Below are positions 5,670-59,575 of a stretch of 64,000 bases of DNA, in pieces. The DNA is from a plasmid. Each line of letters begins with the position of its first letter. Position 1 is the first letter of the stretch. Below the pieces are notes generated by a model. That model had not been told where the DNA came from. It saw only the letters and a list, made by a program, of their open reading frames with translations, and searched no databases. A program made the translations under genes and the position numbers. Where the stretch lies: the sequence record NZ_CP024444.1. One strand, written 5' to 3'.

Positions 5670-7259
5670 CTAAAATGGCGACATGGTCATTTCATTTTGT
5701 TGTGCCATCGTTGGGGCAGGGGTTGGTGGTTCAGGCTCATTGACCAAGGTGTTGCGACCTTTTGGCGAGATTAAATCCAAGTCTTCTTGCGAATAGAACT
5801 CACGAATTGGTACATAGCTAAGTTTGCCAAAATTCGCATCAAGGCTATCAAGCATGGCTTGGGTTTCAAAATTCTTCACTTGAGGGTCGTCGGTCAAGCT
5901 TACGATGGTTTGGCGTGTCGATTTGCGCCACAAGTCTTTGATACTATCATCCCCTGACGTCAACCCTTTTTCTGCAATTAACTTTTCGACCAAACCACCA
6001 GCGTTGATGCCAGGATAGTCACTGATTAATTTAAACTCATAATCATCAGATAGGGGCTTACCGCCTTGGCTTGCGGCAATTTCTTGCATAAAGTTTTCAT
6101 AAGACCCAGCGTATTTAGGCTCAAACATTTTAAATTCATTGCCATTTTTATGGTCAAGCACGGCAATTTTGGCATCTAAATCCCAAAAGATGTTACGTTT
6201 TTCGTGATTAGGATGAATGACATTGTATTCACTCAATACCTCACGGGCTTGATCGACACGCTCACTGATATCATCAAACGCATTCCACACTTGCTCGCTA
6301 TGTTCAATGCTCACTTGGTATTGCGATTTACCTGTCGTTTGACTAATGTGTTCAACTAAGTGCTTATGAAAGGTGTTATCATCAAAAGCCAGTTCTTTGG
6401 CAAAATAAGTATTTAGGTCAGCCGATGTATTAAGATTTAGCTCGCCAATCTTTACCTTGCCCAATTCATCATGGTCAACGTTCACATCAAATTGCACTTT
6501 TGGTGGGTGCGTCGCATCATTTTCATGATGACGAGTGAAGGCTGCGCTAACTTGCTGCATGCCGATAAACTGTTTGGCAAAATCTTCACCAAGTTTAGCT
6601 TTGGGGTCGCTTATGCCATCGCTAATGATTTTACTAAATTTGTCACTCACAATGTCTGCCGCTTGCTGCGCATCGATGCCATAGTCTTCAGTTTTATCCG
6701 CTAGATGACGAGCCGCGATAATCGACGTGGTAACCTCACTTTCTTCAAAATAATCACGCAACTGGCTTACCAGCTTTTCACCTTCGGCACCAGCCCCGAT
6801 TTTATCTAACGTTTCACGAATTTCTTCGCCTATATCATGGGTCGTGACTTCCCAATTACCGCCGTTATTACGAAACGTCTGCTCGATAAAGCGTCCTTCA
6901 TCAAAGTTCAGCATGTCAATCTTGGTTTCTTCAACCCCGTTAACCACCGTGCGCTTAATCTCAATCCCGTATTCTTCCAACACTTCATTAGGAATATTTT
7001 CAATGGTAATTTGCTTATCTTGGTTTGGCGTGGTGGTGGTAATTTGATTGCCATCTAAGGTGAAATGGGGGTTATTGCTGACCAAATCTGCGGTATAAAA
7101 CGCCTTATTGTCATTATTGATGACGATGACTTGGTCAGGTTCTAGGTATTTTAGGTTATCAAACGTATTGCTACTTTGCTCGGGGTCAACTTTGTAGTCT
7201 TTACCGTCTTTACCTCGGACAATATCGGCAGTTACGCCATAAGAAAAGTTTTGTGGCAT
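5670..7259 (-). CDS. Hypothetical acidic 529-aa protein. It is the only minus-strand gene that carries the TTTTTAGCGAA upstream motif.
   Basis: It is a long ORF. The reverse-complemented motif lies at 7278-7294, directly upstream of its ATG. Confidence 0.45.
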   Translation of the reverse strand: MPQNFSYGVTADIVRGKDGKDYKVDPEQSSNTFDNLKYLEPDQVIVINNDNKAFYTADLVSNNPHFTLDGNQITTTTPNQDKQITIENIPNEVLEEYGIEIKRTVVNGVEETKIDMLNFDEGRFIEQTFRNNGGNWEVTTHDIGEEIRETLDKIGAGAEGEKLVSQLRDYFEESEVTTSIIAARHLADKTEDYGIDAQQAADIVSDKFSKIISDGISDPKAKLGEDFAKQFIGMQQVSAAFTRHHENDATHPPKVQFDVNVDHDELGKVKIGELNLNTSADLNTYFAKELAFDDNTFHKHLVEHISQTTGKSQYQVSIEHSEQVWNAFDDISERVDQAREVLSEYNVIHPNHEKRNIFWDLDAKIAVLDHKNGNEFKMFEPKYAGSYENFMQEIAASQGGKPLSDDYEFKLISDYPGINAGGLVEKLIAEKGLTSGDDSIKDLWRKSTRQTIVSLTDDPQVKNFETQAMLDSLDANFGKLSYVPIREFYSQEDLDLISPKGRNTLVNEPEPPTPAPTMAQQNEMTMSPF

Positions 7260-7277
7260 GGGAATATCCTATCATGG

Positions 7278-7294
7278 TTCGCTAAAAATTAATT
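7278..7294 (-). promoter_or_regulatory. Conserved upstream motif (TTAATTTTTAGCGAACC) preceding the minus-strand gene.
   Basis: The sequence, read as a reverse complement, matches the recurring motif. Confidence 0.55.
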
Positions 7295-7349
7295 ACCCGA
7301 TAAAGGGTGATTAAATATTAGCATACTCACATGCGCTTAACTATGAAGT

Positions 7350-7757
7350 TTACAATTGGCTTATTGTCCTGGCATTCAACATTTCGCATGGATTTTTTAG
7401 GCAAGTGGGGTCGACACTATAGGCAGCATAGCTTGCTGACCAAAACACCCCTTCATCCACAGATAGCATGCCACTCGCCTCGCGTTTTAATGCCTTTGTC
7501 GATGCACTTTTGAAGCGATTGACCAGTGATGAAACACTGATAGTCGCAGGATAACGCACAATAAAATTAATGCAATGTGGCTCATACTCAAATATTATGA
7601 GCTGACCGCCGTTTAAATCGCATACCCTAAATATAGCCTCTTTGATGATAGCTTGTGTTGTATCATCAAGTTTATGGGCATCATTTAAAATATAGAACAC
7701 TAAATATGTATAAAGGTATGAAACCACGAAGCGACGGTCTTTAAATCCCCTTGACAT
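7350..7757 (-). CDS. IS200/IS605-family TnpA-like (Y1 HUH transposase) homolog with a degenerate HUH motif.
   Basis: The stretch IIFEYEPHCINFIVRYPATISVSSLVNRFKSASTKALKRE aligns to the IS200 TnpA core EVMPDHVHLLVEIPPKLSVSQFMGYLKGKSS, but the second His of HUH is replaced (HCI). A candidate catalytic Tyr is retained in WSASYAAYS. There is no adjacent tnpB. Confidence 0.45.
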   Translation of the reverse strand: MSRGFKDRRFVVSYLYTYLVFYILNDAHKLDDTTQAIIKEAIFRVCDLNGGQLIIFEYEPHCINFIVRYPATISVSSLVNRFKSASTKALKREASGMLSVDEGVFWSASYAAYSVDPTCLKNPCEMLNARTISQL

Positions 7758-12371: not shown

Positions 12372-15317
12372 ATGCCAGCGTATCAGGGTAATCAATTAAA
12401 ATATAAGCCAACCGAACAGCGTGCTGAAACCAAACGATGGTCAGTACGCATGGCGGAATACTGGAAAACCTCTGAAGGGGCGACTTTCCTAGCAGGGACT
12501 TTGTCGGTTATCGGACTGGTTTCATCATTTTTCCCATTAGGGGGTATTCTAGCTTATCTACCGCTGCGTATCTTATCTCGCAATTTTTTATACCCTGAAC
12601 GCAATTTGCATGATATGCCTATTCGGGTACCAAAATACTTGGGGCTGCCCGATGGCTCTATCGATGCAACCGCCCGAGGTATTAACCCTAAAACCCAACC
12701 TGACAAGCTACTAGGTCAAGGCGTCACCTATCTTGGGATTGACCGCCAAACAGGTCGCCAAACCTATATTAGTAACTCGGACGTGCGCACCCACATGACC
12801 ATCATTGGGACCACAGGTTCGGGTAAAACTGAATTTATTTTTAGCTTGATTGATAACCAGCTTATTCAAAATAGTGGCTTTATCTTCGTCGATGCCAAAG
12901 GCGACATCAATTCACAGCGTACCGTCTGTGCGATGTTGCGTCGCTATATGCGTGAAGATGACATGCTGTCTATTTCATTTGGTGCGTTCGGGCGTAACTT
13001 TATGGAAGCCCAGCTTGATAAGCCAACCAATACCATGAATATCATGGCAAGTACCAGTGATGGTATGCTAATTGAGCTGTTGGCTGGCATGTTAGATAGC
13101 GGTGGAGGTTCATCTGACCTGTGGGTGGGTCGTGCAGTTGCTTTTGTGGGTGCGCTGACAAGACCACTGGTGTTCTTGCGTGACCGTGGCGAAATTAACC
13201 TGTCACCAAGCACGTATATTGAATACATGGAATTAAGCGAAATTGAACGCTTGGTATTTGAGCGCAATAACGATTATCCTGGCTTTGATGAAGTGTTGGC
13301 ACCGCTACGTTCTTACCTTATCACCTTGCCAGGTTATAGCATGGCCAAACGTGCCAAGGGTGAGGCACAAGACCAAAAAACCAATGAGCAGTTTGGTTAT
13401 ATCACCATGCAGCTAACCCGTGCAATCAATGACTTGTCCTACACCTATGGGCATATTTTTGGGGTCGAGCAAGGGGATGTGGATGTCGTCGATGTTATTT
13501 TAAACCGTCGCTGTTTAACCATCTTATTACCAGCCCTAGAACGTTCGATTGACTCATTGAATATGCTAGGTAAGCTCATTATCGGTAGTATCAAGCAAAT
13601 GATGGCAGGCTCGCTTGGTAATAAAATGGAAGGCTTGATCCGTGTGACCGTTGACTCACGCCCAACCACCGCAAATGACGCCTTTCAAATCATCCTAGAT
13701 GAAGTTGGGTACATGATGGTTCGCGGCATGTCAATTATTCCGGCACAAGCTCGCGCATTGAATATTGGCATGGTGTTTGCGTCACAATCGTACACCGATT
13801 TAAAACGTGGGTCAGCAGAAGAGGCTGAAGCGATTTGGGCAAATACCACCATTAAGGTCGTGGGTCGTTTAACTGAATCTGAAGACGATGAAACCATTCG
13901 TAAAGTTAAAGGTGTCGCTGGTCAATACGAACAGATGGTAACCAATAGCTATGACTATCAAGGTACCGATGTTGGCTATCAATACAACCCATCGCAATCC
14001 GTTCACCGCGAAATGCGCTCGCAAATCAATATGCAAGACTTGGGTGGTCAGCAAGACGGTGAATTCCATGTGGTGATTGGTAAGAAATTTAATGGTGGCA
14101 AATCACAAGGTTTAGCGGTTGTCCGTATTCTAGGTTTCTATATGGGCAAGATTGCTGAAGGCTCTCACATGTACCTAAATGACCTCGCGCCAGCACCCAT
14201 GCCCGATAAACGTAAATTTTTACATCTAAAAGAAGTCACCCAGCAATTACAAAGTGTGATTGAAAAACAGCAGTTAAGCCATGAGCTCAACAACAATATT
14301 AGCCAAACTGCCTCTATCCAAAAAACCCAAACCAATCGCTTAAGAAGTGAGCGAACGCCAGTTGGAACCGATAAAAACAATATTATTTTATTCCTGCGCC
14401 ATGCCAAACAAGAGATTATGGCGCATGCTGACGACTATGGTAGTCGCGCCTTGGTGACCGAGTTAACCCTTAATCGCTTGTCTGAAAGCTTGCAATCAGT
14501 GTTTAATAGCGAAGTGGTATTGCCTGTTAACCGCTTACGCAACGGCTCTATCAATCCAATGCAAGATGACGACGTCACAGGCTTTGTGGTGAGTCATGCC
14601 CCTGACATGCTGGATAGCAACTTGGTGACGGCAATGTCTGCCAATTTTGCGCAAACAGGCTACACCTTTGACCGCAGCTCGCATGAAGCAACCTTGCGCC
14701 ATCACTATGAGCTTGCTGAACAGCTACGCCAAGACGCTGAATTGGCGCGTTTAGAATCCGTGTATGCCGATAGTGATTTCCTTTGGGAAAGCCGTAAAAA
14801 TCAGCATTTTGATAGCATGTACCTAAACAATCATGGCGCATTGCCAAGCGATGCCTCGAACACGCCTGAAATGCAGGCATTGTCCCAGCAATTTGAAGAA
14901 AGACAGCTGCTACAACCACTGGCAATGACGGTGTTGTTTAATAACCATGAGATTAATGCCGCCATGAGCAATCCTGAACAGCTGCCAGCGGATGTTGACC
15001 CAACGTGGTTGTTAAATGCCAATGCCATTAAAGATGCTGACCAGTTGCGTAAAAAAATCCAGCAATACCTTGCCTTGCATCACACCCAAAACGAGGCGAT
15101 TGCTACCGAACATCAAATGCTATGTTTCTCAAACCGCTTAAGTGCCTCTATTGCTACCCAAAATGAAGCATTAGACAACCTTGGTAAAAACCGTCCTGTA
15201 TCGCCAAGCCGTTTCTTTGAAGATATGTCAGATAACAACTTACAAGAAACCTTTAAACGACTACGAAACAATGCATTGGTCGCACAGCAACAGCCAAAAA
15301 AAGATGACAGCCAATAA
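12372..15317 (+). CDS. Type IV coupling protein of the VirD4/TraD/DotL family.
   Basis: It has an N-terminal transmembrane segment followed by Walker A IIGTTGSGKTEF and an FIFVDAKGD motif typical of T4CPs. A long C-terminal extension is also present. Confidence 0.7.
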   Translation: MPAYQGNQLKYKPTEQRAETKRWSVRMAEYWKTSEGATFLAGTLSVIGLVSSFFPLGGILAYLPLRILSRNFLYPERNLHDMPIRVPKYLGLPDGSIDATARGINPKTQPDKLLGQGVTYLGIDRQTGRQTYISNSDVRTHMTIIGTTGSGKTEFIFSLIDNQLIQNSGFIFVDAKGDINSQRTVCAMLRRYMREDDMLSISFGAFGRNFMEAQLDKPTNTMNIMASTSDGMLIELLAGMLDSGGGSSDLWVGRAVAFVGALTRPLVFLRDRGEINLSPSTYIEYMELSEIERLVFERNNDYPGFDEVLAPLRSYLITLPGYSMAKRAKGEAQDQKTNEQFGYITMQLTRAINDLSYTYGHIFGVEQGDVDVVDVILNRRCLTILLPALERSIDSLNMLGKLIIGSIKQMMAGSLGNKMEGLIRVTVDSRPTTANDAFQIILDEVGYMMVRGMSIIPAQARALNIGMVFASQSYTDLKRGSAEEAEAIWANTTIKVVGRLTESEDDETIRKVKGVAGQYEQMVTNSYDYQGTDVGYQYNPSQSVHREMRSQINMQDLGGQQDGEFHVVIGKKFNGGKSQGLAVVRILGFYMGKIAEGSHMYLNDLAPAPMPDKRKFLHLKEVTQQLQSVIEKQQLSHELNNNISQTASIQKTQTNRLRSERTPVGTDKNNIILFLRHAKQEIMAHADDYGSRALVTELTLNRLSESLQSVFNSEVVLPVNRLRNGSINPMQDDDVTGFVVSHAPDMLDSNLVTAMSANFAQTGYTFDRSSHEATLRHHYELAEQLRQDAELARLESVYADSDFLWESRKNQHFDSMYLNNHGALPSDASNTPEMQALSQQFEERQLLQPLAMTVLFNNHEINAAMSNPEQLPADVDPTWLLNANAIKDADQLRKKIQQYLALHHTQNEAIATEHQMLCFSNRLSASIATQNEALDNLGKNRPVSPSRFFEDMSDNNLQETFKRLRNNALVAQQQPKKDDSQ

Positions 15318-15330
15318 AGTGAGCAACGCT

Positions 15331-15660
15331 ATGAATAATAATCAACTTATGGATGATGATAATTTAGATGACGAATTCTTGCCATCCCCGTTATACGATA
15401 GTATGAAAACCCATCAAAGCTTTGAACACCTATTGGATAATGCCAAGTCGGTATTAAATACTCGTGCAGACTTTCCATTTTCTAGTATGCATAAACAAAC
15501 ATTAAAAAAATTGGAAAAAGTTGATAAAGCCTTTTTAAAACAAGTGACATTAGCTTTATCAACAGATGATGTAAAAAAGGATCAGTTATTAGCCAGTAAA
15601 CTAGAACAGATTACCCAATATCTGTTAGAAAGATTTGACTTCCTCCCCTCCCTAAAGTGA
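15331..15660 (+). CDS. Hypothetical acidic protein. It is probably the 5' portion of a gene split by the tnpB element. An alternative start lies at 15304.
   Basis: The ORF's last codons run into the IS right-end hairpin. The tracked ORF start at 15181 lies inside the upstream gene and was rejected. Confidence 0.35.
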   Translation: MNNNQLMDDDNLDDEFLPSPLYDSMKTHQSFEHLLDNAKSVLNTRADFPFSSMHKQTLKKLEKVDKAFLKQVTLALSTDDVKKDQLLASKLEQITQYLLERFDFLPSLK

Positions 15661-16890
15661 GGGGATTCCTTCTACAAGACGGTCAAGCCCGACCGCAAGA
15701 ATGTTCTTAGCAGCATTGATATCTCTATCATGCCATGTGCCACACGTTGCACAAGTCCATTCTCTTATCCCAAGCGATTTTCTACCTTTCGGACTGTTGT
15801 CGGTAATATCACCGCAACACGAACATCGTTGGGTCGTGTATTTTTCATTCACGATTTCAAAACGGCAACCTGCGTTCTCGCATTTGTAGGTCAGTTGTCG
15901 TTTCATTTCAAACCAACCTGCATCGTAAACCGATTTAGCCAGTTTGCCTTTTTTACTATTAAATTGATTACTCTGAATATCACCGACCACGATTAGGGCA
16001 TTGTCCTTGACTAATTGGGTGGTAAATTTATGGATTAAGTCTTGGCGTGTGTTTTTGATTTTGGCATGGATCGCTTTGACACGCTGTTTGTTTTTGGCAC
16101 GTTGGGCGGTGGCTAAATCTTTGGCATATTTGAGCGTTTGTTTGATTTGTAATTTATTGCCATTTGAGGCGGTGGCACTGTCTTTTAAGCCTAAGTCAAT
16201 GCCTACGCTACCCGTTCCGCATTGTGTCTTGGGGTATTCTTTGACGGTAATACAGGCATACCAACGGTTACGGCTGTCTTGCACGATTTCTAGTGTGTTG
16301 ATTTGATACAGCGATAGATTGTAGCTGTCCCATAGGTCGATGGTTAGCTTTTGCCCTTTGGCTAGACTTAGTTGCAGAGTTGATTTTAAGCCCTTTTTGC
16401 CTGTTTGGTGGGTGGCAATATGCTTAATAGCCGATTGTTTAAATGGTAGCCAACCAAGCGATTTACGCTTAGAATTTGGGTTGTTGGTTCGCCAGTTAAG
16501 TTTGGATTTTTTGAATTGTTTACGGCTTTTGGCGTGGGTTTCGCTGATAGCTTGAATAGTTTGTGAGTGCAAGCCCAGTAACTCACCGCTACCTTTGGTG
16601 TAGTCGTTTAGGTCATAAGCACTAAAGAATTTGCCAGTTTTTTGTAGGTGTCTGTAACTCAAATCATTGACATAATTCCACACGAAATTGACCGAACCGC
16701 TTAGGCGGTTTAGTTGGTCTGTGTGTTTATCTCGTATGCGTAGCTTGAGTGTTTTCATCGGAATTAGTGTGGCAAGTTATGTTTGAGGTTTCAAGGTGCT
16801 AGGTTGGCTATACGTCATTATGCGTCGTGTTGTTTGCCTTATATCCACCGCCTAAATGCGGTGGTTTTACGGCAAGGGGTGATAAAAACG
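15630..16890 (-). mobile_element. IS605-family element of the IS1341 type carrying tnpB only, with subterminal hairpins at both ends. Boundaries are approximate.
   Basis: The tnpB ORF lies between the hairpins ccaccgc-CTAAAT-gcggtgg (16845-16864) and cccctc-CCTAAAGT-gagggg (15645-15664). No TnpA is adjacent. Confidence 0.6.
15652..16758 (-). CDS. tnpB: TnpB, an RNA-guided RuvC-like endonuclease of the IS200/IS605 OrfB family.
   Basis: It shows RuvC-I GIDLG, a zinc finger CSCCG...CATCG, and RuvC-III RDINAAKNI. At 368 aa its length is typical. Confidence 0.8.
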   Translation of the reverse strand: MKTLKLRIRDKHTDQLNRLSGSVNFVWNYVNDLSYRHLQKTGKFFSAYDLNDYTKGSGELLGLHSQTIQAISETHAKSRKQFKKSKLNWRTNNPNSKRKSLGWLPFKQSAIKHIATHQTGKKGLKSTLQLSLAKGQKLTIDLWDSYNLSLYQINTLEIVQDSRNRWYACITVKEYPKTQCGTGSVGIDLGLKDSATASNGNKLQIKQTLKYAKDLATAQRAKNKQRVKAIHAKIKNTRQDLIHKFTTQLVKDNALIVVGDIQSNQFNSKKGKLAKSVYDAGWFEMKRQLTYKCENAGCRFEIVNEKYTTQRCSCCGDITDNSPKGRKSLGIREWTCATCGTWHDRDINAAKNILAVGLDRLVEGIPSL

Positions 16891-17402
16891 CTTTACTAAA
16901 TACCGAGCTTAAGCATATTACCAGCTACCCACACTTAGGTTACCATCTATTTTTGTTAAAAGATCAACACCTAGTTGCTTATTACGAAGACACAGCTTTG
17001 ATTTCTACCTGTCAGATTTACGTTGATGATGCAGATTTGGGCACTTGGATGTATGTGAATTATTTGCTTGAAAAAATTATCTATTTTGACGTATATAGAA
17101 CCAGCCTTGATAAGCTTACAGTAGGTAGCGTCCTTATTAATCAACCCAAAGATAAAGCATATTCGTTACAAGCATTTAAAGTGGTAGCCAAAAACACCAT
17201 ACCACTGACAGATACTTATGCTATGCTGAACAATACAGTTCTGACACTCGCGCCCATTATGCGTTTAAACAATGCAATAGACCCAAATAAAGTTATTGGT
17301 TGGAATGTATTAGCACTTCCAGGTTATGATAATGATAAGGGTCAGTTGTCCGTTACCATCCCGGCACTAGAGCATGAAGTTGGCACTTTTTACATTAAAT
17401 AA
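16827..17402 (+). CDS. Hypothetical protein. Its 5' end overlaps the IS left end, so it may be the 3' portion of the gene split by the tnpB element.
   Basis: The ORF begins inside the IS left-end hairpin region, and no canonical start or RBS precedes the internal Met at 17052. Confidence 0.3.
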   Translation: MLFALYPPPKCGGFTARGDKNALLNTELKHITSYPHLGYHLFLLKDQHLVAYYEDTALISTCQIYVDDADLGTWMYVNYLLEKIIYFDVYRTSLDKLTVGSVLINQPKDKAYSLQAFKVVAKNTIPLTDTYAMLNNTVLTLAPIMRLNNAIDPNKVIGWNVLALPGYDNDKGQLSVTIPALEHEVGTFYIK

Positions 17403-17549
17403 TTCGTAGGTTTAAAACGCTTTAGTTTTACCTATCGCTTTAGCAAGGGGAGGATTTCGAGTTGAATAATAGATTTGATATATTATTTGTTATCTTTGAT
17501 AGGCTCTGATATATTACGTTCAAATTAACTTATTTTATAGATAATACAC

Positions 17550-17969
17550 ATGTTTGAACTTGAAATGATTGGAAAACGGCTTGAAAATGAGCGAAAACGG
17601 CTGGGAATGAAGGCGGTTGAGGTTTACAAAAGCCTTGATATTGCTCAAACCACTTATAAAAGTTATGAAACTGGCAAACGCAATATTCCTGCCAGCTTAC
17701 TTACAAAACTATGGGATATAGGTTTTGATATATTGTATATTGTAACAGGAGTATACACCGAATCAGCGAACAGTAATCAGGTAATCAGGCAAAATCGGTT
17801 AGTAAATTTACCGGATAATACTGACACGCATGTCTTGTCAGACAGTCTATTAATATATATGCACCAGGCAGAAGAAGCACTGATTCAAGCTGGTGCAGAA
17901 GCCGCCAAACACTATAGTTATAAGGATTTGTTAATAGCTGCAAGTGTTATACAACAGAAAAAGGGCTAA
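17550..17969 (+). CDS. XRE/Cro-C1-type helix-turn-helix transcriptional regulator.
   Basis: The stretch LGMKAVEVYKSLDIAQTTYKSYETGKRNIPASLLTKL fits the classic XRE HTH pattern. Confidence 0.6.
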   Translation: MFELEMIGKRLENERKRLGMKAVEVYKSLDIAQTTYKSYETGKRNIPASLLTKLWDIGFDILYIVTGVYTESANSNQVIRQNRLVNLPDNTDTHVLSDSLLIYMHQAEEALIQAGAEAAKHYSYKDLLIAASVIQQKKG

Positions 17970-18951: not shown

Positions 18952-19962
18952 ATGGCAAAAGCACTTGTAACAAAAGCACCAAAGCACACAGCAGGCGCAT
19001 CTACAGGCTCACCCAAGATTGTGTTGTTATTATCAATTCTTGCGACAGTCTTCTTTATTCTCACCTTGCTACTATCGTTCATGCTGTTTAAAAACGGTCC
19101 TGTGCCACAAGACCAAGTTAAAGCAAAAGTAGCTACGTTTGGCGAGGTGGTCAGTAGCGAGCCGCTGGGGGACACGGGCATGACCGCTTGGGTGTTAAAA
19201 CCAAAAGGCACCAATCAAAATGCTATTTTTTATAGCACCAAAGACGGTAAAGCTTTCATCGATGGTACCATCTTCAACATTGCTGACGGCAAAGACCTAA
19301 CCACGCCATTACTGGCAAAAAATAACATCGCGCCAGCAACCGCACCAAACACCGACCCCCAAACTGTCACCGCAACACCTGTTTCAGCTACAGGTCACCC
19401 AACCCCGGAACAAGTAGTGGCACAAAGCACTGAAGGCGAGCCTCTTGGCGAATTTAAAGGTACGGTACCTGAAGTAATCAAAGTGTTGGATAGCATGCCG
19501 GGCTACAAAGAAGATAAGTCCATGAAGCCTGAAGATACTGTGTATGTCGTTTACGATCCACGTTGCCCGTATTGCCATAAGTTATATGAAATGACGCGCA
19601 ATGTTGACTTCAAAGGTAAAAATATCACCATCAAGTGGCTACCAAGCGTTGCGCTCGGTCAAAGCAACGGCAAAGATGAAATTGCGCGTCAAGCCGCATT
19701 TGCCTTTGAAGCGAAAGATGGTGCGGATTTTGGCCGTACTTTTAGCCAAGAAAAACCTTTAGCCGCTAAATTTGGTGACCAAGAAACCCAAGCATTGGGC
19801 TTAAATCTATCATTGCTATATGAAGCAGCGGATAAAACCTATGGCAAGGATGCGCCTAAAGCGGTACCAGCAGTGTTTTACTTAAACAAGAAAAACGGAT
19901 TGCCAAAAATGATTTATGGTTCAACTGATCCGGCAGTCTTTAAAATCATCTTTGGTAGCTAA
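18952..19962 (+). CDS. DsbC/TrbB-like thiol:disulfide interchange protein with an N-terminal membrane anchor.
   Basis: It carries the active site DPRCPYCHKLY (CPYC) in a thioredoxin-like C-terminal domain. It is analogous to TrbB of F and IncI transfer systems. Confidence 0.6.
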   Translation: MAKALVTKAPKHTAGASTGSPKIVLLLSILATVFFILTLLLSFMLFKNGPVPQDQVKAKVATFGEVVSSEPLGDTGMTAWVLKPKGTNQNAIFYSTKDGKAFIDGTIFNIADGKDLTTPLLAKNNIAPATAPNTDPQTVTATPVSATGHPTPEQVVAQSTEGEPLGEFKGTVPEVIKVLDSMPGYKEDKSMKPEDTVYVVYDPRCPYCHKLYEMTRNVDFKGKNITIKWLPSVALGQSNGKDEIARQAAFAFEAKDGADFGRTFSQEKPLAAKFGDQETQALGLNLSLLYEAADKTYGKDAPKAVPAVFYLNKKNGLPKMIYGSTDPAVFKIIFGS

Positions 19963-28358: not shown

Positions 28359-28435
28359 GAAAAAAGTGCATAGCATGTGTCATTAATTGAAATTAGTTCA
28401 AAAACTATAGAGGTGAATATGAAAAAATTAGCAAT

Positions 28436-28792
28436 ATGCGGTTAAAAAAAACTGGGCAAGTAACCTTGTATTTTTTCTTTGCTAATAATAACAATGGGCT
28501 AGTTTTCTATAAAATAGTAAGATATTTTATGCTACAAAACATACGAGATACATATATTGAGCGTACTCGTCAAGGTCAAGATGAAGTATTGCTTAAAATC
28601 ATTAGCCCAAGTTACTGCTATGCTAAATGTAATAAAAAAGATGTGCCACTTTTTATTTGTACGCTTAGTGACAACGATGAAACAATCAATATTAGTGATA
28701 ATTTAAAATTTTTCAGAAATGAAGAGGATGCTTATTGGGCAGCCGTCAATTCAGGCAATAAGAATTTACCGATGACAAGACCTAAGACATGA
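28436..28792 (+). CDS. Hypothetical small protein; the start is uncertain.
   Basis: The evidence is the ORF alone. Confidence 0.25.
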   Translation: MRLKKTGQVTLYFFFANNNNGLVFYKIVRYFMLQNIRDTYIERTRQGQDEVLLKIISPSYCYAKCNKKDVPLFICTLSDNDETINISDNLKFFRNEEDAYWAAVNSGNKNLPMTRPKT

Positions 28793-58321: not shown

Positions 58322-59575
58322 GAGACCTTTGCACGAAACAGCCCCTTTGCTCGAGGCATACCACCAAACCGAAAAAAAACAAAGAATGGCAATGAAATAA
58401 GCAAAACAATGGCTAAATCATGGATAAAATCTCCAAATGGTTGTTAAATTTGTGTCTATTGGCTGAGCTTACTAACCAACAGACACAATAACCCTAGGCG
58501 AGTCCGTATTTTCGTTTCAAGCTTAGGGCAGTTTTTAAATTATGCACCATGCTTGCAAGCAAAGTGCTGGTATGAAATTGCATTAACCCTAAATGACGAG
58601 CTTTGCTCATCCCATAATGCAGTTTAAAATGTCCAAAGACCCGCTCAACGGTGTTTCTAGTTTGGCTCTTTTGGGTATTATTGCGTTTTTGCTGTTCGGT
58701 TAAGGGTGTATTGCGCCATGCTCTATCATGAATATGATTTTTTATCGGTGGTTCATGCTCGGCAAGGTAGTCATCATGGGCTTGGCTTTTATACGCACTG
58801 TCAGCATACACGGCTGATTCATCATCTGTTAACAGCATGGTAAAACATTGGGAATCATGGACATTGGCAGGGGTAGTTTCAACCTTTTTGACAAAGCTGT
58901 CTTCATCACAGTTGAGATGAATTTTAAAGCCGTAGGTGGTTTTTACTTTACCTGTACTGTCTTTTTTACTGACATAGGCGGCTTCGTTATCTTGGGTATT
59001 GTCGGTGTGTTTGCCTTTCTTAGGTCGTTTGTTTTTAGCTTCAACGATACTGGCATCGATGATGCTGACATTGCCCGCTTTGATAAAAATGTTTTGTTGG
59101 GCTAGTTGCTCATTGATTTGGTTGAACAATGGTTCAATCAGTCTAAGCTCACCTAGGTGTTTGTGGTATCGCCAAATGGTGCTATGGTCGGGTACATCAT
59201 CCGTTAATGATAGGCCAACAAAGCGACGAAATAGTAAGTCTCGTGCCAGTTGTTTTTCCATGGCTGGATCCGATAGGTTATAGAGTTTTTGTAAGAGTAA
59301 TACTTTAAACATGATGACAGGGTGAAAGGCAGATTCCCCACGCTCACTGCTATGAACGTGGCGTAAGGTTTGCTCGATAGTTTGCCAGTCAATTAGGTTG
59401 TGTAGTTCATCTAATTCTTCGATGGCTTTGTGAGCGTTAATGAGACTGTCTGCTAGGGAGAGTTGCCCTGTTTGTTTCCATGCCATAGTCGTGTCTTTTG
59501 CTAGGTGATTGATTTTATTGTATTATACCAATTTAATGAACTTTTGTGTGTTTATTCGTGCAAAGGTTTCGTATA
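58322..59575 (-). mobile_element. IS5-family (IS5 group) insertion sequence of about 1.25 kb with an intact transposase gene at 58494-59486.
   Basis: It has inverted repeats ACCTTTGCACGAA at both ends. The transposase has an IS5 DDE core (about 330 aa). Confidence 0.7.

What the first reader, a model, noticed from the sequence alone, without database searches (positions are those of the whole stretch)
15304..17402. Solo TnpB (IS605-family) element inserted directly after the coupling-protein gene, apparently splitting a host ORF
An intact 368-aa TnpB carries RuvC and zinc-finger motifs. It is flanked by two subterminal hairpins that share a CTAAA loop, at 16845-16864 and 15645-16664 read as 15645-15664. 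No TnpA is adjacent, as in IS1341-type elements. Both neighbouring ORFs run into the element ends. One is 15331-15660 and ends in ...FDFLPSLK inside the right-end hairpin. The other is 16827-17402 and begins inside the left-end hairpin. This suggests that a single gene of about 290 aa was interrupted. The right-end side should encode the omegaRNA, whose guide is derived from the flanking transfer-region sequence.
Basis: partly seen in the sequence, partly recalled or inferred. Interest (0 to 1): 0.55.

Follow-up and report, generated by a model that had tools for sequence, protein, structure and literature searches.

The report
Solo-TnpB insertion sequence splitting a plasmid gene
A 1,247-base mobile element of the common IS200/IS605 family, carrying only the RNA-guided nuclease gene tnpB, has landed inside a small gene of unknown function next to the DNA-transfer coupling protein of a Moraxella osloensis megaplasmid; the diagnosis is correct, but the element is an ordinary one.

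Summary
An almost identical plasmid, M. osloensis pMOXF1 (99.6% identical flanks), has the empty site. This fixes the insert at window 15635-16881 (1,247 nt) with no target duplication. Removing it in silico restores an 825-nt ORF of 274 aa, 273/274 identical to pMOXF1 FEF33_13855.

The element is a tnpB-only (IS1341-type) derivative of an IS200/IS605 family that is very abundant in Moraxella and Psychrobacter (at least 545 relatives). Its copies share:
- a left-end hairpin;
- a right end finishing in ...GGAGGAAGTCAA;
- insertion 3' of TTTAT (61 of 69 distinct sites).

Full-length relatives of about 1,660 nt carry a divergent Y1 tnpA. The window has no cognate tnpA.

The last ~198 nt of tnpB plus the right end form a conserved, covarying RNA structure, the presumed omegaRNA. 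Its guide, ATCTTTCTAACAGATA..., together with TTTAT matches the pMOXF1 empty allele exactly.

This is a published "rearranged" TnpB active site.

Verdict: a well-diagnosed, ordinary IS insertion of low novelty.

The parts
15635..16881 (-). Complete IS200/IS605-family, tnpB-only (IS1341-type) insertion sequence of 1,247 nt, without a target-site duplication
   Evidence: Boundaries come from the empty site in pMOXF1. It is the only copy in the window.
15652..16758 (-). tnpB, 368 aa. RuvC-I is D188. RuvC-II is G259 (the canonical Glu is absent), with E305 as the alternative. RuvC-III is D346. The zinc finger is C312/C315/C336/C339. The TAG stop lies in the loop of the right-end hairpin.
16759..16881 (-). 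Left end (LE). The imperfect palindrome is at 16834-16875, with the inner hairpin at 16845-16864. AAAA (16865-16868 on the element strand) lies directly 5' of the hairpin foot. The 77-nt spacer to the tnpB ATG was not found in 85 other copies.
16882..16886 (-). TTTAT target / presumed TAM abutting the LE. It belongs to the host gene, not to the element.
   Evidence: TTTAT occurs at 61 of 69 and TTAT at 65 of 69 distinct insertion sites of the family. The same TTTAT is present in the empty site.
15635..15665 (-). Right end (RE) terminus: hairpin at 15644-15665, then AGGAAGTCAA. The cut is 10 nt 3' of the hairpin foot, after TCAA.
   Evidence: Every complete copy ends in ...GGAGGA(A/G)GTCAA. The inner stem shows compensatory variants.
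15635..15832 (-). Presumed omegaRNA scaffold of about 198 nt, lying almost entirely within the 3' coding part of tnpB plus the RE
   Evidence: On 68 copies, 96.8% of cells are paired against 38-53% in the slid controls. Ten pairs have changes on both sides against 0-3. The covariation score is 0.177 against at most 0.056. The single-sequence fold has z = -3.4. The 5' end is inferred.
15619..15634 (-). Presumed omegaRNA guide (ATCTTTCTAACAGATA), which is host-gene sequence flanking the RE
   Evidence: TTTAT plus the 20-nt flank occurs once, at the pMOXF1 empty junction. In the window the same sequence is preceded by GTCAA. The guide length is inferred from known TnpB systems.
15331..15634 (+). 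5' part of the interrupted gene (codons 1-101 and one base). As it stands, the ORF reads on into the RE for 8 more codons, to 15660.
16882..17402 (+). 3' part of the interrupted gene (173 codons and the stop)
   Evidence: Joined to the 5' part it gives 274 aa, 273/274 identical to pMOXF1 QCR87083.1.
12372..15317 (+). Context: gene for the type IV secretion coupling protein (981 aa), upstream of the interrupted gene
   Evidence: Pfam TraG-D_C and TrwB_AAD_bind. The best NCBIfam match is TrbC_conju, E = 9e-89, below its cut-off.

Best explanation
This is a non-autonomous IS200/IS605-family insertion sequence (tnpB only, IS1341-type). It inserted as single-stranded DNA 3' of a TTTAT on the minus strand of a Moraxella osloensis megaplasmid, within codon 102 of a 274-aa gene of unknown function. 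That gene lies just downstream of the T4SS coupling-protein gene.

Shown:
- the exact boundaries and the absence of a target duplication;
- restoration of the gene on excision;
- the family's conserved ends and TTTAT flank;
- Y1 TnpA in full-length relatives;
- an intact TnpB with conserved catalytic and zinc-binding residues;
- a conserved, covarying RNA structure across the tnpB 3' end and the right end.

Inferred from the established IS608/ISDra2 mechanism:
- A cognate Y1 TnpA supplied in trans, from full-length copies such as those in M. osloensis chromosomes, binds the LE and RE hairpins on the tnpB-sense strand. It cuts after TTTAT and after TCAA, and moves the element by 'peel and paste'.
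- The tnpB transcript is processed into an omegaRNA whose guide is the flank ATCTTTCTAACAGATA....
- TnpB-omegaRNA would cut the TTTAT+guide sequence that reappears when the element is excised, which is exactly the pMOXF1 allele. Recombination from a filled copy would then restore the element.

The insertion splits the host gene. Whether that affects plasmid transfer is unknown.
For: - Empty site: pMOXF1 matches the flanks at 99.6% and lacks exactly 1,247 nt. Excision restores a 274-aa ORF, 273/274 identical.
- Family: at least 545 relatives. In 85 loci examined, the LE palindrome and the terminus ...GGAGGAAGTCAA are conserved. The flank is TTTAT in 61 of 69 sites.
- Size classes: about 1,217-1,250 nt for tnpB-only copies and about 1,655-1,669 nt for copies with a divergent tnpA. 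That tnpA is an NF033573 IS200/IS605 transposase at 151 bits.
- End geometry parallels IS608 as described in PMC3201880. The target tetranucleotide lies 17 nt 5' of the LE hairpin foot (19 nt in IS608). AAAA sits next to the foot (AAAG in IS608). TCAA is cut 10 nt 3' of the RE hairpin foot, as in IS608.
- TnpB: Pfam and NCBIfam matches. It matches ISDra2 TnpB at E = 2e-25. The AF2 model has pLDDT 90.5, and its best structural matches are TnpB 8IAZ and 8H1J. D188, E305, D346 and four Cys are conserved in homologs down to 31% identity.
- RNA: covariation analysis and fold z-score.
- Guide and TAM match the empty allele exactly.
Against: - The 64-kb window has no cognate tnpA. The only Y1-like ORF (7350-7757) is 33% identical and scores below the NCBIfam cut-off, so mobility depends on an unseen chromosomal copy.
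- The canonical RuvC-II glutamate is missing (G259), and nuclease activity of this rearranged site has not been tested for this family.
- There are no expression data, and no promoter-like site above chance.
- The LE-to-ATG spacer differs from all other copies, so expression of this copy could differ.
- Rfam gives no omegaRNA match at threshold.
- The RNA structure was derived from the same alignment on which it was scored.
- Only one empty-site plasmid is known, and the interrupted protein has no other homolog.
Confidence: 0.93

Rival explanations
1. The element is a dead relic. It is an IS200/IS605 insertion, but it can no longer move and no longer makes an active nuclease. Possible causes are the lack of the canonical RuvC-II glutamate, the odd LE spacer, or the absence of a cognate TnpA in the host.
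For: G259 replaces the catalytic Glu. The LE spacer is unique. No promoter is detected. The window has no cognate tnpA.
Against: - The ORF is full length, and every residue conserved across the clade is intact.
- G259 and E305 are invariant across homologs down to 31% identity. This is a clade feature, not decay, and it matches a published rearranged but presumably active site (PMC10691335).
- The LE palindrome and the RE are intact.
- The flanks are 99.6% identical to an empty plasmid, so the insertion is recent.
- M. osloensis chromosomes carry full-length copies with tnpA.
Confidence: 0.1
2. The TnpB is a domesticated, nuclease-dead RNA-guided regulator (TldR-like) that targets the transfer region, not a transposon passenger.
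For: The canonical RuvC-II Glu is absent. The gene sits inside a transfer operon, in the antisense orientation.
Against: - It lies between intact transposon ends and is absent from the sister plasmid.
- The family is multi-copy, with 9-12 or more copies per genome at unrelated sites.
- D188, E305 and D346 are conserved.
- The guide is simply the insertion flank.
Confidence: 0.02
3. pMOXF1 is not the ancestral state but the product of precise excision. On this reading the filled plasmid is older and pMOXF1 lost the element.
For: IS200/IS605 excision is precise and leaves exactly such a seamless junction (IS608 mechanism, PMC3201880). The sequences alone do not give the direction.
Against: TnpB-guided cleavage of the empty allele would select against survival of excision products in cells that still hold a filled copy.
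Confidence: 0.2

Closest known systems
IS608 (Helicobacter pylori), the mechanistic model of the IS200/IS605 family
   Same: - Subterminal imperfect palindromes at both ends.
- No terminal inverted repeats and no target duplication.
- Insertion 3' of a specific tetranucleotide that abuts the LE.
- The RE ends in TCAA, cut 10 nt 3' of the hairpin foot.
- An A-rich tetranucleotide lies directly 5' of the LE hairpin foot (AAAA here, AAAG in IS608).
- Y1 TnpA plus TnpB in full-length copies.
   Different: - The target is TT(T)AT rather than TTAC.
- The target lies 17 nt rather than 19 nt from the LE hairpin foot.
- In full-length relatives tnpA is divergent from tnpB, as in IS605.
- This copy has lost tnpA.
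- TnpB has a rearranged RuvC-II site.
ISDra2 TnpB-omegaRNA (Deinococcus radiodurans; PDB 8EXA, 8H1J)
   Same: - Same protein family and fold (E = 2e-25; Foldseek E = 2e-17, TM 0.67).
- RuvC-I Asp, RuvC-III Asp within a DRDxN motif, and a C4 zinc finger.
- The RNA scaffold overlaps the tnpB 3' end and the RE.
- The guide is the RE flank, and the TAM is the transposon target site.
   Different: - About 20-23% sequence identity.
- TAM is TTTAT (inferred) against TTGAT.
- RuvC-II Glu278 aligns with Gly259, and E305 aligns with a Pro of ISDra2.
- The tnpB stop codon lies 17 nt from the element end, so almost the whole scaffold is coding.
RuvC-II-rearranged TnpB clades (RIIr-5 of Altae-Tran et al. 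2023, PMC10691335)
   Same: The catalytic Glu of RuvC-II is replaced by Gly, and an alternative conserved Glu lies elsewhere (here E305, directly after strand beta-5). These TnpBs are mobile and associated with Y1 TnpA.
   Different: Placement in that clade was not tested phylogenetically.
IS1341-type elements and their sotRNA / HgcC RNAs
   Same: tnpB-only organisation, with an RNA overlapping the tnpB 3' end (PMC4615843). A weak Rfam HgcC match covers the terminal hairpin and the GGAGGAAGUCA tail.
   Different: The HgcC match scores 16.2 bits against a gathering score of 50, E = 1.3. It is not a member by Rfam's criterion.

Membership tests
IS200/IS605 insertion sequences | No target-site duplication; seamless junction in the empty site | tested here: met
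   pMOXF1 reads ...AGAAAGAT|ATAAAAAC.... The window holds 1,247 extra nt exactly between these bases.
IS200/IS605 insertion sequences | Subterminal imperfect palindromes at both ends, and no terminal inverted repeats | tested here: met
   LE palindrome at 16834-16875 (z = -3.4). RE hairpin at 15644-15665, conserved with compensatory variants. The termini are unlike each other.
IS200/IS605 insertion sequences | Insertion 3' of a conserved tetra- or pentanucleotide that abuts the LE | tested here: met
   TTTAT at 61 of 69 and TTAT at 65 of 69 distinct sites.
IS200/IS605 insertion sequences | Y1 (HUH) TnpA transposase in autonomous members | tested here: met
   Ten of 85 related loci carry an intact divergent tnpA between the LE and tnpB, 94-100% identical to one another; two more carry a frame-broken one. 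NF033573 at 151 bits against a cut-off of 55. It is absent from this copy and from the window.
IS200/IS605 insertion sequences | Single-strand 'peel and paste' transposition | not testable with these tools
   Needs excision and integration assays.
TnpB / OMEGA RNA-guided nuclease | TnpB sequence family and fold (WED/REC, RuvC, zinc-finger TNB) | tested here: met
   PF01385 and PF07282. NF040570 at 269 bits. PDB TnpB at E = 2e-25. AF2 pLDDT 90.5, with Foldseek top hits 8IAZ and 8H1J.
TnpB / OMEGA RNA-guided nuclease | Canonical RuvC D-E-D triad | tested here: not met
   D188 and D346 are present. The RuvC-II Glu position is Gly259 in all 76 family members and in 69 of 70 sequences of the diverse alignment.
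TnpB / OMEGA RNA-guided nuclease | Structured RNA encoded across the tnpB 3' end and the RE, followed by a flank-derived guide | tested here: met
   A conserved covarying structure. The guide plus TAM matches the empty allele. Expression and processing were not tested.
TnpB / OMEGA RNA-guided nuclease | TAM-dependent, RNA-guided DNA cleavage | not testable with these tools
   Needs interference or cleavage assays.
RuvC-II-rearranged TnpB (RIIr type, PMC10691335) | RuvC-II Glu replaced by Gly, with a conserved alternative Glu | tested here: met
   G259 in 69 of 70 and E305 in 69 of 70 (one Asp) sequences of the diverse alignment. E305 is invariant in A3. It follows strand 299-304 in the model.
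RuvC-II-rearranged TnpB (RIIr type, PMC10691335) | Phylogenetic placement in clade RIIr-5, and the alternative Glu facing the active site | not tested
TldR-like nuclease-dead TnpB regulators | Loss of the RuvC catalytic residues, single copy, no transposon ends, fixed genomic context | tested here: not met
   The acidic residues are conserved. Both ends are intact and the element is absent from the sister plasmid. The family is multi-copy.
IS607 family | Serine-recombinase TnpA | tested here: not met
   Full-length relatives carry a Y1 TnpA, not a serine recombinase.
Rfam HgcC (RF00062) | Score at or above the gathering threshold (50 bits) | tested here: not met
   16.2 bits, E = 1.3, at 15628-15764 on the minus strand.

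The most novel reading that the evidence does not exclude
The window and pMOXF1 form a natural filled/empty allele pair for a TnpB with a rearranged RuvC-II site (Gly259, with Glu305 after strand beta-5), in a family that has proliferated greatly in Moraxellaceae. If this TnpB-omegaRNA is active with a TTTAT TAM, the pair would allow a direct test of two points. The first is whether rearranged-site TnpBs perform the same guide-directed retention (homing) as ISDra2 and the Geobacillus stearothermophilus (Gst) elements, here on a transfer-proficient megaplasmid. The second is whether E305 is the catalytic substitute.
Probability: 0.5. Interest if true: 0.3.

Novelty: new member of a known kind. 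Interest (0 to 1): 0.17.

Why it matters
Its main use is annotation. The two short ORFs flanking tnpB are halves of one gene, the element's exact ends are now known, and the plasmid differs from pMOXF1 at this locus only by this insertion.

There are three modest further points:
- It documents a recent transposition into the transfer region of a M. osloensis megaplasmid.
- It defines the ends, the TTTAT target and the RNA scaffold of a very abundant Moraxellaceae IS family.
- It provides a natural target/guide pair for testing a TnpB with a rearranged active site.

Nothing here challenges current understanding of IS200/IS605 or TnpB.

Tried and rejected
- **Rfam, all families, permissive threshold on 14800-17800.** Nothing reached threshold. 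The weak HgcC match (16.2 bits) is a lead only. The weak psRNA14 match (28.4 bits against 60) simply covers the LE hairpin.
- **Promoter and terminator scan.** Promoter-like sites are no more frequent than in shuffles. The 'terminator' hits are the RE hairpin read on the + strand.
- **Homolog search for the restored 274-aa protein, and Pfam.** No hit at all, so its function and its link to transfer stay unknown.
- **Origin of the unique 77-nt LE-to-ATG spacer.** No match in 85 copies, and no tnpA remnant.
- **Distance of E305 to D188 and D346.** Model coordinates are not exposed, so only the secondary-structure position could be used.
- **A fuzzy-regex end search** timed out and was replaced by blastn-short.
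- **Considered and rejected:** IS607 membership, a TldR-like domesticated regulator, and terminal inverted repeats. The inverted match 15641-15660 / 17435-17454 is a separate RE-like relic, not an element end.
Full report
**Observation**

The window has an intact 368-aa ORF on the minus strand at 15652-16758.
- It matches Pfam OrfB_IS605 and Cas12f1-like_TNB.
- It matches NCBIfam 'RNA-guided endonuclease TnpB family protein' at 269 bits, against a cut-off of 100.
- It matches solved ISDra2 TnpB at E = 2e-25.

- The one at 16845-16864 sits inside a 42-nt imperfect palindrome at 16834-16875. As single-stranded DNA it folds better than all 200 shuffles (z = -3.4).
- The one at 15645-15664 is not significant on its own (z = -1.3). 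It is conserved in related copies, with compensatory stem variants.

The ORF 15331-15660 ends in ...FDFLPSLK* inside that hairpin, and ORF 16827-17402 starts just inside the other end.

**The empty site**

A megablast of 14900-17900 against plasmids found M. osloensis pMOXF1 (CP040258.1). It matches both flanks at 99.6% but spans 1,754 nt instead of 3,001. pMOXF1 annotates one 825-nt CDS (FEF33_13855, QCR87083.1) between the coupling-protein gene and the HTH regulator gene.

Alignment of the junctions and blastn of the whole window place the insert at exactly 15635-16881. That is 1,247 nt with no duplicated target bases.

Joining 15331-15634 to 16882-17402 gives a 274-aa ORF that is 273/274 identical to the pMOXF1 protein. 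Only the proposed excision coordinates (15630-16890) and the gene size (about 290 aa) were slightly off.

**What family it belongs to**

The protein has at least 545 relatives in one-genome-per-species bacterial contigs. The best 80 are all from Moraxella, Psychrobacter and close kin, with 9-12 or more copies in single M. osloensis genomes and more in M. atlantae. Fourteen other Moraxella plasmids also carry copies.

In 85 loci, every complete copy ends in ...GGAGGA(A/G)GTCAA and begins with the same palindrome-bearing left end.

The base sequence just outside the left end is TTTAT in 61 of 69 distinct sites and TTAT in 65 of 69. Further out there is only a weak T preference at -6 and -7.

Two size classes exist:
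- about 1,217-1,250 nt with tnpB only;
- about 1,655-1,669 nt with a divergent 136-aa tnpA between the left end and tnpB.

That tnpA is a bona fide IS200/IS605 Y1 transposase (NF033573, 151 bits). One copy (L028) retains only a tnpA C-terminal remnant, which shows how the solo form arises.

The end geometry mirrors IS608 as described in PMC3201880.

| Feature | This family | IS608 |
|---|---|---|
| Target, and distance 5' of the left hairpin foot | TT(T)AT, 17 nt | TTAC, 19 nt |
| Four bases next to that foot | AAAA | AAAG |
| Right end, and cut 3' of the right hairpin foot | TCAA, 10 nt | TCAA, 10 nt |

The T-for-C change in the target and the A-for-G change in the guide position fit the IS608 base-pairing rule. 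This last point is my inference.

**TnpB itself**

RuvC-I D188, RuvC-III D346 (within HDRDIN) and the C312/C315/C336/C339 zinc finger are present and conserved.

The canonical RuvC-II glutamate (E278 of ISDra2) aligns with Gly259. This holds in all 76 family members and in 69 of 70 sequences of an alignment whose other members are only 31-49% identical. In the same set, Glu305 is present in 69 of 70 (one Asp) and is invariant in alignment A3. In ISDra2 it aligns with a proline.

The AlphaFold2 model is confident (pLDDT 90.5). It puts D188 in strand 183-189, G259 at the end of strand 253-260, E305 directly after strand 299-304, and D346 at the start of helix 345-357. Its best structural matches are TnpB complexes 8IAZ and 8H1J.

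This is the arrangement published for RuvC-II-rearranged TnpBs: Glu replaced by Gly, compensated by another Glu as in RuvX. Those clades were judged mobile and probably active (PMC10691335).

I did not test clade placement, and I could not measure distances in the model.

**The RNA**

Rfam has no family reaching threshold here. The weak HgcC match covers the terminal hairpin and the GGAGGAAGUCA tail, and HgcC has been linked to IS1341-type right ends (PMC4615843). At 16.2 bits it remains only a lead.

Instead I aligned the last 200 nt of 68 copies (A2) and scored the RNAalifold consensus with three pairs added by hand.

| Measure | Structure | Partners slid by 1-3 columns |
|---|---|---|
| Cells forming standard pairs | 96.8% | 38-53% |
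| Pairs with changes on both sides | 10 | 0-3 |
| Covariation score | 0.177 | at most 0.056 |

The compensatory changes sit in five helices, for example:
- GAGAAUG/CAUUCUU, switching A-U to G-C;
- GCGGUC/GACCGU, with C-G, U-A and G-C;
- CU[U/G/A]...[A/C/U]AG;
- ACGAU/AUCGU against AACUU/AGGUU.

The window copy folds at -65 kcal/mol, z = -3.4. Because the tnpB stop codon lies in the loop of the right-end hairpin, 17 nt from the element end, nearly the whole scaffold is coding sequence.

Two caveats apply. The structure was derived from the alignment it was scored on, and the 5' end (about 15830) is inferred.

**Guide and target**

On the tnpB strand the right end is followed by ATCTTTCTAACAGATATTGG. 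TTTAT plus these 20 nt occurs once in the pMOXF1 locus, exactly at the empty junction. In the window the same sequence is preceded by GTCAA, not by a TAM.

So the copy is programmed against its own empty allele and protected from itself. This is what the known TnpB retention mechanism requires. Cleavage itself is inferred.

**Mobility and consequences**

The window has no cognate tnpA. The only Y1-like ORF (7350-7757) is 33% identical and below the NCBIfam cut-off. Movement therefore needs TnpA in trans, which M. osloensis chromosomes can supply.

The closest copies in the collections are about 90% identical in DNA and 95% in protein. The 77-nt stretch between the left palindrome and the ATG is unique, so the donor is not in hand.

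The interrupted protein has no Pfam domain and no homolog among 5.8 billion proteins. Its neighbour is a type IV coupling protein closest to IncI/DotL-like TrbC, and a DsbC-like gene follows. Any effect on transfer is unknown.

**Verdict**

The element is a new copy of a known, very common kind. The only mildly noteworthy features are the clean filled/empty pair, the rearranged RuvC-II site and the fully coding-embedded RNA scaffold. Interest is low.

Noticed in passing
window 17436-17460 (+): A relic resembling the family's right end lies 33 nt after the stop of the interrupted gene. GCTTTAGCAAGGGGAGGA is an exact 18-mer of the RE variant seen in L003 and L006, followed by TTTCGA instead of AGTCAA. 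It lacks the 5' half of the hairpin. It has the opposite orientation to the present element. Its first part is also seen in pMOXF1. Zero such matches are expected by chance. It is possibly the scar of an older copy.
   Followed up: partly
window 5670-7757 (-): A 135-aa Y1_Tnp-like ORF lies at 7350-7757 (Pfam E = 3.6e-11; NCBIfam IS200 43.8 bits, below the cut-off of 55; 33% identical to the family's TnpA). It is followed on the same strand by a 529-aa ORF (5670-7259) with no Pfam or NCBIfam match. Both are annotated 'hypothetical' in pMOXF1 and are collinear with it.
   Followed up: partly
window 30477-58123: About 27.6 kb has no counterpart at this position in pMOXF1. It holds histidine-utilisation genes (HutH, HutU, a permease, an arginase-family and an amidohydrolase gene), a formamidase, an rve-type integrase/transposase and, just beyond it, an IS5-like DDE transposase (58494-59486). 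The pMOXF1 ornithine/arginine decarboxylase-potE block is missing from the window.
   Followed up: partly
window 28408-28679: About 270 nt here do not align with pMOXF1, between two collinear blocks. No IS-like ends are obvious on reading.
   Followed up: no
L069, L070, L072, L086 (Moraxella atlantae): Copies of the family carry an extra ~57-60 nt inside the 3' coding part of tnpB, within the presumed omegaRNA scaffold (...GATGAGAACGGATAAGCAAAGCACTGCTTTGCCCGTTCGC...). Their elements measure 1,281-1,344 nt.
   Followed up: no
L016, L024 (assembly labelled Streptomyces cinereus JCM 3040, BMPS01): Copies 92% identical to the Moraxella element occur in an assembly labelled Streptomyces. L016 has the same flanks as a M. 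osloensis chromosomal copy (L022). This suggests Moraxella contamination of that assembly.
   Followed up: no
window 12372-15317 and 18952-19962: The coupling protein is closest to IncI-type TrbC (DotL-like), and a DsbC-like thioredoxin-fold gene lies downstream. This suggests a type IVB (IncI/Dot-Icm-like) transfer system, although PLSDB types pMOXF1 as non-mobilizable.
   Followed up: partly
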